Below, in pieces: positions 36,001 through 49,747 of a stretch of DNA of 49,747 bases (position 1 is the first letter of the stretch; the number at the start of each line of letters is the position of its first letter). A program made the position numbers. Source of the stretch: Vulcanimicrobiales bacterium (GTDB taxonomy: Bacteria; Vulcanimicrobiota; Vulcanimicrobiia; Vulcanimicrobiales; Vulcanimicrobiaceae); contig JBBRLI010000020.1 in the NCBI GenBank assembly GCA_038231455.1, forward strand, positions 1-49,747, written 5' to 3'.

Positions 36001-39000
36001 CGACTCGAGAGTCCGATAAAATAGTGCAACTCGAGCGGTAGCCGGAGCCACTCCGGCAGCGTACCGATGGCGGCGAACAAATCCAAGCGATCGAGGCTTG
36101 CACCCGTCGCGTCGATTGTCGGCGCGTCAACGAGCGGCGCGCGGCGTTCGCCGTCGCGCCGCATCCGACGCGCGCGATCGCGGGCGCGGGAGACGACCGT
36201 ACGATACGCCCAGGCGGGAAAGGCATCGATTTGCCGCAGATCTGCTAGCGCCGCGCAAACCGCAATGCAAGCGTCTTGCGCCGCTTCTTCGGCGGCTTGC
36301 GTGTCGCCGAGAATCGACCATGCGATTCGATATGCATTTGGCCAGAGCGCCCGCGCGAGCGTTTCGCGCGCCGGGGCTCCACCAAGCGCGGCTGCTCGCG
36401 CGAGATCGACTAGCGTATCGAGGCCGCTCATAGCCACAGGACGTTCGCCAAGGCGCGTCTGTTGGTGGCTGGTTAGACGATTTTGAGTTGGTAGATCGTG
36501 ATTTCGTCGTCGCGGCCGCGGATTTTCGCGACCATTTTATCGGCCGGATAATTGAGCTTCGATGCGAGGTACGTCGGTTCGTCGACAAAGATTGCATCGG
36601 GCGGAGCGGCTGCTTGGAGACGTGATGCGAGATTCACCGCGTCTCCGATGACCGTGTAGTCCATGCGCTTTGCCGATCCGATGTGTCCCGCAACGACGTC
36701 GCCCGTAGCAAGGCCGACCGAAATATGTAGTGGACGGCCGAGTTTACTTTCGAGACGCCCAACGATGTCGTTCAGTTCGACTGCCGCTTTGATCGCGCGC
36801 GTCGCATCGTCGCCTCTGACGTTCGGTGGCCCGAAGACGGCCATGATGCCGTCGCCGTAAAATTTATCGAGTAAACCTTCGTAGCGGAAAATCGTCGCAA
36901 CGGCTTCATCAAGATAGGTATTGAGAATGTCGACGACTTGCTCGGCAGGCATGTGCGAGGCCATCTTCGTGAAGTCGCGGATATCGGCGAACATGATCGT
37001 AGCGGGCTGACGTTCGCCGCCGAGTTTGATGTTATCCGGCTGGCGCATCAGCGACTCGACGACGTGCGGTGCAAGGTAGCGCGAGAAGGCCTCTTGCACG
37101 GCGTGACTGCGTTTGATGTCTTCCTGGTGCATCTCTTCGAGCGCGCGTCGTTCGGTCATATCCGTTACCGCGATCGCGGCACCGCCGGGAATATCGCCTT
37201 TTTCAAGCGATGCGATCCGGACTTCGAGTGCCAGTTCGCCGCGCGTCGCATGACGGCCAACCATATTGTAGTGGCCGCCGAAACCGTGACCCGATCCAAG
37301 GAACGTCGTAATGCCGGGGACGAGCGCGTCGAGCCCCCGTTCGGGCTGGCCGACCATCGATGTCGGGATGATGCCGAACGTATTGCCGGCGGCCTCGTTG
37401 AAGGTCGTGATCGTACCGGCTTTGTCGGTGGTGACGACGCCGCTCGTAATCGATTCGAGGATCTGCGTTTGAAACGCCTCGAGACGCGAGATCTCCGCGA
37501 GTCGTAGGGCCTGTTCTTTGAAGAGTCGGGCGTTGTCGATTGCAAGTGCCGCTTGGTGCGCGAAAGCGAGAATGAGCTGCGGATCTCCGCGATGGAAGAG
37601 ATTCGGTGTGATGCGCGAGTCGAGGTATACGACGCCGATCGAGACATCGCGTAGTTTGAGGGGCACGCAGATAATCGAGCGCAGCGCGAGCGTCTGAATC
37701 GATTGCGATGCCTCAAAGCGCGGGTCGGTCTGCGCGTCGGTCGTAAAAACGGGTTCGCCGCTTTCGGCCACTTTGCGCACGATCGACTGTGAGATCTTCG
37801 CATCGTTCGGATCGTCGGGATTGATGTTGTGTGCGATCGCTACGGCGAACTTGCCATCATCGTCGCGCAAGACGACGAAGCCGCGATCGGCTTTCATCAC
37901 CTCCACCGCAGCGTCGAGCACGTCTTTGAGAACGTGGTCGAGGTCGAGCGACGAGTTGACGATCGAGGAAACGCGCGTGAGCATTAACGCTTTTTGAATC
38001 TCGCGCTCCGTGCGATCCGTCATCGCGCTCACTTTGCTGAGCAGCGAGGTGTTTTCGAGCGAGAGCGTATCGAGCGCGAGCAGCGCTCGATCGATTTCAG
38101 CGGACAGCGCTGCGTCGCGCGCGCCGACGCGTGTGCGAATCGCTTCGAGTACCGTTTTTGCAACGTCGGCGGGGGCAGGACTGTGTTCGGTTGCCATCAG
38201 ATGCAGCAGTACAGGACGCGGGTGCCGTACGAGTCGTACCAATTCGCCGGAAGAAATTCGAGGACCGCGTTTGCGGCATCGGCTGGGACGAGGAACGAGA
38301 GATTGCTCGTAAACACTTCGCTTGGCGAGAGAAGCCCGTCTTGCGAGAGATCGATCGCGCCAAGGTGGGGCCGGGGCGTCGGCGTGTAGCGCTTGTCCCC
38401 GACGATCAATTGGAACTCGGGCAAACGAAAGGCTTGCGGTCGGACATTCGACGGATTCTTGAGCCGTGCGTTCTCGACGACGACGTATTGCTGACCGGGC
38501 GGACCGGGATCGACGACGGTTCCGCTACTCGTGATGCCGAGCGGCAAGCGAATTGTAACTGCTGCGAGGGCAGAAATCGGCGCGGCGATCGTTACAGCGA
38601 GCGCTAGAATTGCGGTAAGGATGCGAAAGGTCACGTCCGTTAACCATCCCATTCGCGCGGCCCGTGCCTGCCAATTAAGGAGAAGACAGCGGTGGTGGAG
38701 GGGTCCGCTGCCTTCTAAAAATTCGACGGCCGCGCTCCAACTACGGTTCCTTCTTTTGTCGCTCCACCCTGCGGCAAGGCAAGTGCGGCAACGAGCCGGC
38801 CATTTTCCGGCCATGCAGGCCCGGTACGCTTCGCCTATGACGATCGATACCGGAGCCAATACCGAGGCCGCGGCGCTTGCCGCCCGCGACCGGCTGACGG
38901 AGCAGACCCGCAGCGGCGCCACAACCGAACGGGGAATGGCGGGGATCGCAACGACGGCGATCTTTGAAGAAGCATTGCTCGCCGCAATCAAAGCCCGCTT

Positions 39001-48000: not shown

Positions 48001-49747
48001 TCTATCTGCCGTTTATCGCGATCGACCTTGCCGTCGCATCAATTTTGATGGGCCTTGGAATGTTTATGCTCTCGCCGCCAGTGATCTCGCTACCGTGTAA
48101 GTTGCTTCTCTTCGTTCTCGTCGATGGCTGGGCGATTGTTTGCGGTGGCGTTGTCACGAGTTTTCGCTAGCGACATCGCATGGAAAGCCATGCGATTGAG
48201 ACGGCGTTGGCGCTCTTGTCCTCCGGCTTCGCGTTCGCGTTCGTTACGCCTAAGACCGACGAGGGAGCCCGGACACTCTTCACACGAGAGAGGCCCTGAG
48301 GTAATCCGATCGGCTTAGTGGGACCTTGCTTGACCTCGGATTTACAGAGTGGAGCATGAAGACCTTGCACCAGGTATTAGGGTTGTTTATCCCGCGCATA
48401 TCGGCTGGAAGTTGATTTGGGCGCCACCCCTGGTTAATCGCGAACAGTCTCCGCTGCTGTTTCGATTCGTAGGCATCCGAGACACCGGAGAAAGCCTGCC
48501 CTATAATCCGGACACAATTTTCAAAGCGCGTCATCGGTCATCACAAAGCAGACATCGTTTCGTATCGAGCAATGTGACGGTCGCGTTCGGCGATCGAGCG
48601 ATTCTTTAAAGCCATTCAAGCATACGTACTTGACATGCCGATTGTAAAGTGTGACTTGACAGACGCGGTCCTCGCTCAGTGCTAAAATAAAGCGACTTTT
48701 ATGGACGCACGCCGAGAAGAATCAGGTGGATCGAGCTTCGCGAGCCTATTGCGACGGTTTCGCAAAGCCGTCGGCTTCTCGCAGTTCTTTTTGGCTGAGA
48801 CGTCGGGAATCAGCGTGGAGACGGTTGGAGCCCTAGAACGCGGACTCCGAAAGGCGCCATATGCCGAAACGATTGAAGCCATAGCAGATGCGCTGAAGTT
48901 GAATCCTGCAGATCGCGCTGCTCTTAAAGATGCAGCGGCGCGTGGGAGAGCTCGGCGAAGCGTTGATCCTGCCGCAGCAACAAGTACGGCCCCGGAACGC
49001 AGTCTCCCGGCGATGTACCTAATTGTCGAAGCGGGACGCGTCGCCGAATTTGCCGAGTTGGCCGCCCACGGCTCCATCCTATTCACACTCGTCCCGTTAT
49101 CTGAATCGCGCCTCGGTTTATTGCTTTCCGCTTCCGATGTCGGCCATGACTCGGATAGCCTTCGCACGGGATAACGATACAGATGCTCACTTCGTTGGCT
49201 TAACTCACCAGTCGCACCGACCTAAAGGGAGTTGCTTCGTAATGACTGATATCGTCTTGAATAATCCGACTAACCGTTCGCTCTTCGCCGAGCTCTTGCA
49301 AAAATGCCGGCGACGTACGCCTGCTGACGCACACATCATCCTTGAAATGCTAAGGAGTCCGGAACGCGTCGGAAAGCCCGTGAGTCAGGGCGAGGTTGCG
49401 CGCGCCGTAGGGATCGATCGCCGAAACTATGCGATGCTCGAGAGAGGCATCGCGCTTACAGTCGCACCAACAATGCTCGCTCGCATAGCAACCGCACTTT
49501 CGATGAACGAGGCAGAGCGGAACTTCTTGGCAGATCTCGTCGTCCCCGAAGTGAGTTCGAAGCGATTCGACAAGTCATGTTCATCTGTAGCAGAACTGGC
49601 TTCGATGCGACTGAGTCTGCCCCGGTTTCCCGGACAGTGGATTATGCTGCAATCGGCAGCGACGACTCGTATTGGATTGGGCTGACGTAGCCGAGCGTCG
49701 AATGACGACGTTTGGAATTGTACCAGCCTTCGATGTAGTTGAAAATA

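What a model noticed while it worked through the whole genome (the two positions that open the first line are those of the whole stretch)
38837..48170. Second, motor-less flagellum-derived type III export system with a FliF-FliG(M) fusion, kept in non-flagellated relative [...]
Besides a complete flagellar gene set on C9, the genome encodes a second, divergent and reduced flagellum-type export machine: FlgC, FliE, a FliF fused to the FliG middle domain, FliH, FliI, a lytic transglycosylase, FlgF-like, FliM-like, FliN and FliP on C20, continued by FliQ, FliR, FlhB, FlhA on C23:5680-9778, plus two rod genes and a FliA-like sigma on C7:52775-56809. It is conserved across the class, also in closed genomes without flagellin, MotA or the FliG torque domain, so it looks like a basal body turned into a non-motile secretion system in free-living bacteria.
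Evidence so far: Second copies found by tblastn, FlhA2 37% identical to own FlhA; Pfam YscJ_FliF + FliF_C + FliG_M in one 486-aa ORF, same three domains in 91 of 91 close homologues. In the same 41 family genomes the fusion is in 38 but flagellin in 19; 19 of the 22 without flagellin have it. FlhA2 orthologue (56-70%) in 22 of 23 family genomes, most with no second FlhA; fusion also in the other family of the class, 3 of 3. Single-contig genomes G011, G045, G036 lack flagellin, MotA and FliG_C (positive control G079; calls 58, 68, 75) yet keep the rod genes and sigma. C20 and C23 parts are one operon in relatives. FlhA2 groups with flagellar FlhA, apart from the Chlamydiales/Archangium clade (FastTree, call [...]
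(Added by a program. Inside this text positions count along the whole contig: contig position 1 is position 1 of the stretch shown here. "Call 12" and the like, gene names such as g00115 and contig names such as C1 are that model's own, and its searches are not shown. The text may have been shortened before it was handed on; [...] marks where a part breaks off. The agent that wrote the report below was given it as the finding of a first reader that could run no searches.)

Follow-up and report, generated by a model that had tools for sequence, protein, structure and literature searches.

The report
Motorless flagellum-derived export machine, phylum-wide
A whole phylum of mostly uncultured soil and water bacteria keeps a second, motorless copy of the flagellum's base as a separately regulated protein-export machine, even in members that have no flagellum, and it may show how flagella turned into secretion systems.

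Summary
Confirmed and extended. The window holds a reduced flagellum-type export operon: FlgB?/FlgC/FliE, FliF fused to FliG-middle, FliH, FliI, lytic transglycosylase, a FliK-like ruler (new), a short rod/hook protein, FliM, FliN, FliP; fliQR-flhBA and flgF-flgG-flgJ-fliA lie elsewhere. The fusion is in 73 of 79 class genomes, 47 of the 53 without flagellin; catalytic motifs are intact and dN/dS is 0-0.22. New: the other classes of Vulcanimicrobiota carry the same two operons in fuller form (7 read), with a FliG that has lost two torque-helix arginines; full-length FlhA is in 51 of 51 of those genomes, flagellin in 18. A shared 11-bp repeat promoter, trained on relatives, ranks five system genes and one unlinked zinc peptidase as the top 6 of 3,470 genes here. 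Small helical proteins are candidate filament subunits. Most trees put this export gate outside flagellar ones, on the injectisome side, but one tree and an AU test (p=0.12) leave that open. Best reading: a non-rotating basal body with a rod crossing the wall, exporting proteins to the periplasm or surface. No substrate or expression shown.

The parts
38781..38830 (+). Promoter: 3-4 direct repeats at 11-bp period plus a TAnnnT -10 box ending 6 nt before the ATG (leaderless by spacing)
   Evidence: Matrix trained on relatives only scores it 21.7, rank 2 of 3,470 genes, rank 1 with the refined matrix
38837..39028 (+). 63-aa helical protein in the flgB position (FlgB remnant by position only)
   Evidence: 33 orthologues of 60-73 aa in related loci; no Pfam match; no score to FlgB
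39025..39384 (+). FlgC-like proximal rod protein
   Evidence: Flg_bbr_C E 2e-5, TIGR01395 E 3.5e-10
39381..39647 (+). FliE
   Evidence: PF02049 over cut-off
39647..41107 (+). FliF (RBM1-3, two TM) fused to the FliG middle domain; no FliG N or C domain
   Evidence: Pfam; AF2 model pLDDT 78.8; residues 100-212 match FliF Z 16.9, residues 397-480 match FliG Z 8.9, rmsd 1.7; 120 of 120 listed homologues carry FliF_C+FliG_M
41097..41609 (+). Short FliH
   Evidence: PF02108 E 1.1e-6
41606..42874 (+). FliI/SctN-type export ATPase, motifs intact
   Evidence: SctN 357.7 vs FliI 350.3 bits; Walker A in 39 of 41, GERGRE in 40 of 41 orthologues
42858..43469 (+). Lytic transglycosylase without hydrophobic signal stretch
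   Evidence: SLT E 2e-32; no hydrophobic segment; best G000 hit of the other-class operon SLT in 6 of 6; not called in some class loci
43405..45030 (+). Aspartic protease, inserted passenger
   Evidence: Asp_protease_2; missing from several orthologous operons; no repeat box in 0 of 18
45009..45058 (+). Internal repeat-box promoter before the ruler gene
   Evidence: Score 14.6; >=12 in 15 of 36 relatives
45077..45619 (+). FliK/SctP-like ruler (T3S4 domain)
   Evidence: AF2 C-terminal alpha-beta-beta-beta-alpha-beta; top two of 48,161 chains are PscP SS domain Z 6.3 and FliK-C Z 5.7, rmsd 2.4, 64 aligned (Z is modest); same position as Pfam FliK in the other classes; hhalign to those FliK failed
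45619..46350 (+). 243-aa FlgE/F/G-family axial protein in the hook position, no D2 domain, no flgD before it
   Evidence: LlgE_F_G_D1 E 0.0025; scores 13-32 bits to the ~270-aa protein of the other-class operon vs 9 to own FlgE
46347..47141 (+). Divergent FliM
   Evidence: FliMN_C E 9.8e-9, TIGR01397 E 5e-5
47141..47404 (+). FliN
   Evidence: TIGR02480 over cut-off
47452..47501 (+). Repeat-box promoter before fliP
   Evidence: Score 13.0, rank 6 of 3,470; >=12 in 18 of 36 relatives
47508..48170 (+). FliP, gate motif intact
   Evidence: TIGR01103 over cut-off; MG[LM]GMxMLSP in 37 of 37
48048..48298 (+). Duplicated fliP 3' end/metF 5' end; second copy on C23:1877-2129 leads on to metF and later fliQ-fliR-flhB-flhA
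   Evidence: 76% identity; both contig ends match one element on C16; nearest relative L010 has the same duplication

Best explanation
A dedicated, non-rotating type III export machine derived from a flagellar basal body, ancestral to the phylum Vulcanimicrobiota and reduced further in this class. Shown: the genes, their order, intact catalytic and gate motifs, purifying selection, absence of stator, P-ring, hook cap, hook-filament junction and flagellin in most carriers, and a shared promoter. Inferred: FliF builds an MS ring; its fused FliG-M holds a FliM/FliN sorting platform with FliH/FliI; FliPQR-FlhB-FlhA export FliE, FlgB/C/F/G-like subunits under the mini-FlgJ cap, with the transglycosylase opening the wall; the ruler and FlhB cleavage then switch to late substrates under the FliA-like sigma. 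With no P/L ring or linked secretin, the rod probably ends in the periplasm or at the outer membrane. Candidate cargo: a small helical protein family (possible filament subunit) and a signal-less zinc peptidase.
For: Fusion in 47 of 53 class genomes without flagellin; exactly three rod C-terminal domains in 10 of 10 non-flagellated genomes tested, 7 and 9 in two flagellated ones. MotA, FlgI, flagellin 45 and FlgD 46 of 131 phylum genomes vs FHIPEP 126. dN/dS 0-0.215 for all 14 operon genes vs L010. FlhB NPxH 10 of 10; FlhA loop motifs kept in 9 of 10. Same operon in 7 other-class genomes, second cluster flgF-flgG-flgJ-fliA without flgA/H/I in 4 of 4 and 12 of 12 class loci. Their FliG_C lacks two torque-helix Arg in 6 of 6 (which residues matter is recalled). 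Repeat box in both clusters and both groups, absent from flagellar promoters. Precedent: Buchnera basal bodies (PMC8109811), Lysobacter export of non-flagellar proteins (PMC7688988), Myxococcus needle-less T3SS* (PMC12075869); passages read.
Against: No substrate, structure or expression shown. No outer-membrane exit: closed G087 has no secretin match, others have unlinked ones. Both cargo candidates also occur in five genomes where the fusion was not found, and the peptidase keeps its box in 3 of those 5. The helical-protein operon has no repeat box, 0 of 30. The class proteins evolve fast and are shrunken, and lack FliJ and FliO by my gene calls. The transglycosylase is missing from some class operons.
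Confidence: 0.66

Rival explanations
1. A structural or signalling device rather than an exporter of cargo: it exports only its own rod and ruler, and serves as a wall-anchored pore, tether, nanotube base or sensor that gates the FliA-like sigma.
For: The regulon found is almost only the apparatus itself (6 genes); no outer-membrane channel; a sigma is kept in all 16 second-cluster loci read.
Against: Ruler, FlhB switch motif and ATPase are kept, which implies a late substrate class (established T3SS biology); small helical genes follow flhA in 5 other-class genomes, in three identical copies in G047.
Confidence: 0.2
2. A second, divergent flagellum or motility organelle whose filament and stator escaped detection, or a set that serves the main flagellum.
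For: All parts are flagellar homologues; other-class FliG keeps all three domains; fast evolution could hide a filament gene.
Against: No FliG_C in 4 of 4 non-flagellated genomes tested; MotA, FlgI, FlgD and flagellin appear together only in flagellated genomes; weak flagellin hits in 7 genomes lie, in the one read, in an efflux membrane-fusion protein (named by eye); own promoter type.
Confidence: 0.06
3. A decaying relic of an old flagellum.
For: Short, divergent proteins; not found in 6 of 79 class genomes; two split and two stop-bearing copies; long branches.
Against: dN/dS 0-0.215; conserved motifs, order and promoter; other-class FlhA 74-95% identical among the 119 nearest hits.
Confidence: 0.04

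Closest known systems
Buchnera flagellar basal body (PMC8109811, passages)
   Same: Basal body, rod and export gate kept without flagellin, MotA, MotB; proposed exporter.
   Different: Buchnera's is the cell's only, recently reduced flagellum in an endosymbiont and keeps FlgH. This is a separate paralogous system coexisting with a full flagellum in 26 of 26 flagellated class genomes, without P-ring or hook cap.
Chlamydia FliF-FliG(M) fusion with FlhA and FliI (PMC4768692, passages)
   Same: Same fusion type: FliF with a C-terminal FliG middle domain, in a non-flagellated cell.
   Different: Chlamydial FliF is ~330 aa, lacks ring domains and sits beside a full injectisome; here FliF keeps RBM1-3 and has its own gate, rod, ruler and sigma. 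No chlamydial sequence was in my trees.
Myxococcales needle-less T3SS* (PMC3459982, PMC12075869, passages)
   Same: Type III export apparatus without secretin, needle or motor in free-living bacteria; basal to injectisomes.
   Different: Myxo systems lack FlgBCDEK, FliEG, FlgH, MotAB and are SctV-type; this one keeps FliE, rod genes, FliF, FliG parts, FliM, FlgJ, FliA. No named Myxo sequence was in my trees.
Lysobacter enzymogenes remnant flagellar T3SS (PMC7688988, passages)
   Same: Non-flagellated soil bacterium exporting non-flagellar proteins through flagellar export genes.
   Different: Remnant of one genus's own flagellum; here an ancient phylum-wide paralogue with its own promoter.
Single-domain FlgJ plus separate lytic transglycosylase, Borrelia BB0259 (PMC8517470, abstract)
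   Same: Rod cap without muramidase, partnered by an SLT for wall penetration.
   Different: There it builds a rotating periplasmic flagellum.

Membership tests
Bacterial flagellum | Export gate FliPQR-FlhB-FlhA and ATPase FliI | tested here: met
Bacterial flagellum | FliE, FlgB, FlgC rod markers | tested here: inconclusive
   FliE, FlgC met; FlgB only by position in this class, Pfam-positive in the other classes
Bacterial flagellum | Stator MotA/MotB and FliG torque domain | tested here: not met
Bacterial flagellum | Hook cap FlgD, full hook, FlgK, flagellin | tested here: not met
   in non-flagellated carriers
Bacterial flagellum (diderm) | P and L rings | tested here: not met
   FlgI only in flagellated genomes; flgA/H/I missing between flgG and flgJ; FlgH not searched genome-wide
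Injectisome (NF-T3SS, Abby and Rocha definition) | Linked secretin SctC | tested here: not met
   None in operons; none found in closed G087, unlinked in 4 of 5
Injectisome (NF-T3SS, Abby and Rocha definition) | Absence of FliE, FlgB, FlgC | tested here: not met
   FliE and FlgC present
Injectisome (NF-T3SS, Abby and Rocha definition) | Needle subunit SctF, tip, translocon | tested here: inconclusive
   Small helical family after flhA has no Pfam or PDB sequence match and no hit to two SctF; not folded
Injectisome (NF-T3SS, Abby and Rocha definition) | FlhA-family subunit inside the SctV clade | tested here: not met
   Outside SctV in all trees
Chlamydia-type FliF-FliG system | FliF fused to FliG-M | tested here: met
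Chlamydia-type FliF-FliG system | Truncated ~330-aa FliF, common descent with chlamydial genes | not tested
   Length differs (486 aa); no chlamydial sequence obtained
Repurposed basal body (Buchnera-like) | Assembled basal bodies that export protein | not testable with these tools
   Needs tomography and secretomics

The most novel reading that the evidence does not exclude
The system is a living early intermediate on the path from flagellum to injectisome: sister, with a Sericytochromatia system that also has a FliF-FliG(M) fusion beside its FlhA, to all SctV-type machines, still carrying rod, FliE, FliG, ruler and FliA but no motor, and building a filament from a small helical subunit. It would predate the Myxococcales stage.
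Probability: 0.3. Interest if true: 0.93.

Novelty: new variant of a known kind. Interest (0 to 1): 0.8.

Why it matters
Motor-less basal bodies are known as late remnants in single lineages. This one is a near-universal, separately regulated second machine of a whole, abundant soil phylum, with two natural stages of reduction (full FliG without torque residues; FliF-FliG(M) fusion). It is annotated as flagellar, so motility is probably over-called in these genomes. It offers a testable case for how a flagellum became a secretion system, and a promoter that names candidate cargo. A cultured, non-flagellated member of the phylum exists (PMC9758169).

Tried and rejected
No RNA holder was listed for the operon: no evidence either way. 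Earlier findings were not open. FlgM search inconclusive: the model found only 9 of 69 family genomes though 25 are flagellated. MotA_N model too insensitive (11 of 69); replaced by a protein query. Profile comparison of the ruler with 5 FliK sequences gave no match. FastTree placed FlhA2 with Actinobacteria: judged compositional attraction since mixture-model trees differ. No 'careful' bootstrap tree finished; all supports are SH-aLRT or SH-like. Five-gene tree with one long row (G053 flagellar, partly doubtful ORF picks) did not join the system with injectisomes; without that row it did, 98. Rows were dropped on purpose (18 long or redundant rows). Naming 20 cluster representatives gave few taxa. 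Peptidase alone had no significant PDB sequence match. Literature searches that found no description of this system: Eremiobacterota+flagell, Vulcanimicrobiota+secretion (89), Sericytochromatia+flagell+type III secretion (80), FliF-FliG fusion+Chlamydia (20), non-flagellated basal body terms (28), injectisome evolution terms since 2019 (86), Planctomycetes fusion terms (130). Ji et al. 2021 is not held. Supplements were not read; Table S8 of PMC9758169 and the TXSScan tables of PMC9259500 may list these genes. Whether the cultured strain carries the operon was not checked by name.
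Full report
Observation. The window is contig C20 of a 3.7-Mb genome whose relatives are named Vulcanimicrobiota/Eremiobacterota. 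The genome also has a full flagellum: fliF-flhA and motAB on C9, rods and P/L rings on C16, flagellin and FlgL on C25 and C58. The second set is continued on C23 (fliQ, fliR, flhB, flhA) and C7 (flgF, flgG, a 61-aa FlgJ remnant, a FliA-like sigma without region 3, a 94-aa unknown). C20 and C23 both end in one element that also lies on C16, and the 3' end of fliP is duplicated across the gap; relatives have fliP-metF-fliQ in one piece.

Anatomy. The 486-aa protein has three ring-building domains, two membrane helices and a FliG middle domain, by Pfam, model and structure search. The unnamed ORF at 45077-45619 folds like the T3S4 domain; the two best of 48,161 chains are PscP and FliK (Z 6.3 and 5.7, modest), though a profile comparison failed. 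ATPase, FliP, FlhB and FlhA motifs are kept. dN/dS against the nearest relative is 0-0.215 for 14 of 14 genes, housekeeping neighbours 0.02-0.20 (one pair, dS near 1).

Distribution in the class. In 79 genomes the fusion is in 73, flagellin in 26, MotA 26, FlgI 26, FlgD 27. All 26 flagellated genomes and 47 of 53 others have it. Ten of ten non-flagellated genomes tested have exactly three rod C-terminal domains. The main operon sits beside rplM-rpsI in most loci, the second cluster between divIVA and the glycolysis operon in 12 of 12. Kin are not independent and these are samples; G110 is unpublished.

The system is phylum-wide. All 51 genomes of the other classes have a full-length FlhA match, only 18 have flagellin. 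Reading seven of them (G002, G053, G008, G027, G011, G006; G013 in part) shows flgB flgC fliE fliF fliG fliH fliI fliJ SLT fliK, a ~270-aa rod-like gene, fliM fliN fliO fliP fliQ fliR flhB flhA, with no flgD, fliL or motAB; four of four also have flgF-flgG-flgJ-fliA without ring genes. This is the window's order. Window proteins score higher to these than to flagellar copies for FlgC, FliF, the rod-like protein, FliM, FliN, FlhB, FlhA, and tie for FliI, P, Q, R; C7 FlgF, FlgG and sigma could not be compared there. Their FliG has all domains but lacks two arginines of the torque helix in 6 of 6, kept in two flagellar FliG (their role is recalled). Mixture-model trees join the two forms at 99. 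So the motor was lost first and FliG was trimmed and fused later in this class.

A shared promoter. Both clusters begin with direct repeats at 11-bp period and a -10 box 5-8 nt before the start codon. A matrix from 37 upstream regions of relatives ranks flgG, the window's first gene and fliQ top of 3,470 genes here; flgG and fliQ were not in training. Refined on 117 sites from relatives, its top six are five system genes and one unlinked gene, C1:127735-128301 (the peptidase's orthologues were then in training). Scores of 12 or more occur before that gene in 30 of 42 relatives, fliQ 15 of 24, fliP 18 of 36, ruler 15 of 36, and in none of 10 control sets such as 37 rplM and 31 metF. The other classes have the same kind of repeat in 7 of 9 first genes against 3 of 327 others. 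The spacing recalls OmpR-family boxes (recalled, untested). Flagellar promoters lack it.

Candidate cargo. C1:127735 is a 188-aa HExxH zinc peptidase with weak likeness to the ATLF/Mx1 families, in 77 of 79 class genomes. A glutamine-rich helical protein of about 80 aa follows flhA in five other-class genomes, in three identical copies in G047. A weak homologue (E 0.015-0.04) is a tandem pair at C5:78190-78892 behind a second transglycosylase; it is in 77 of 79 class genomes and in turn hits the gene after flhA in f5 genomes. It has no repeat box (0 of 30), so it may be a late gene; that is untested. Against both: they occur in five genomes where the fusion was not found.

Position among type III systems. 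FlhA trees put the system, a Sericytochromatia clade (named) and SctV on one side of a branch at 98-99, all flagellar FlhA on the other; FliP+Q+R+FlhB alone agrees at 98, as does a five-gene tree. One metagenome locus of the Sericytochromatia-like clade has a FliF-FliG(M) fusion directly before flhA. Against: a five-gene tree with one more long row breaks the grouping, the program warns of long branches, and the tree with the system as sister of the phylum's own flagellum is not rejected (AU p 0.121). No named Myxococcales or Chlamydia sequence was included.

Mechanism and verdict. Most likely a non-rotating basal body that builds a short rod through the wall, switches substrate by ruler and FlhB, and exports a few proteins to the periplasm or surface (0.66). 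It works like Buchnera's basal body and the needle-less Myxococcus machine but fails membership of both flagellum and injectisome. Papers seen: passages of PMC9758169, PMC4768692, PMC3459982, PMC9259500, PMC12075869, PMC7688988, PMC8109811, PMC13277936 and 10.64898/2026.06.21.733656; abstract of PMC8517470; no supplements. None of the passages describes this system. New variant of a known kind, interest 0.8.

Noticed in passing
G053, G027, G008, G002, G006 (L120-L143): Other classes carry many stand-alone FlhA cytoplasmic-domain genes, up to 11 FHIPEP matches per genome, some fused to FliG_N or ankyrin repeats; possible substrate adaptors.
   Followed up: partly
L067, L069, L070 (G059, G041, G065): Extra ~480-aa FliF paralogues outside flagellar operons; peptidase-like genes lie near some FliF or FlhA-C paralogues.
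   Followed up: no
L171:115-3434: Sericytochromatia-like FlhA preceded by a FliF-FliG(M) fusion and followed by housekeeping genes.
   Followed up: partly
ESM Atlas hits for window 39647-41107: Planctomycetota clusters of 630-690 aa fuse FliF with FliG_M and often FliG_C.
   Followed up: no
G000 C3:15991-17331, C6:153535-154689, C1:84247-85389: Three solitary flagellin-like genes far from the flagellar clusters.
   Followed up: no
G000 C9:47700-50227 and L258-L261: A second long FliK-domain gene plus a small FlhB-C-terminal-like gene, beside fliA in the flagellar region here and ahead of flgF in the other-class second cluster.
   Followed up: partly
window 48170-49747: Insert after fliP with XRE-type HTH remnants and an IS end; continues on C23 with a flavodoxin-like gene.
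   Followed up: partly
window 33115-33825 (- strand) and 33190-34176: Small PAS protein resembling photoactive yellow protein (recalled) beside a Crp-family regulator.
   Followed up: no
window 36473-38652: GAF-PAS adenylate/guanylate cyclase and DUF4352 gene, divergent from the operon in many class loci.
   Followed up: no
G070:C62 and C18: Two full copies of the fusion operon in one genome.
   Followed up: no
G009:C1:1511191-1511328: FlgM-like hit in a genome without flagellin.
   Followed up: no
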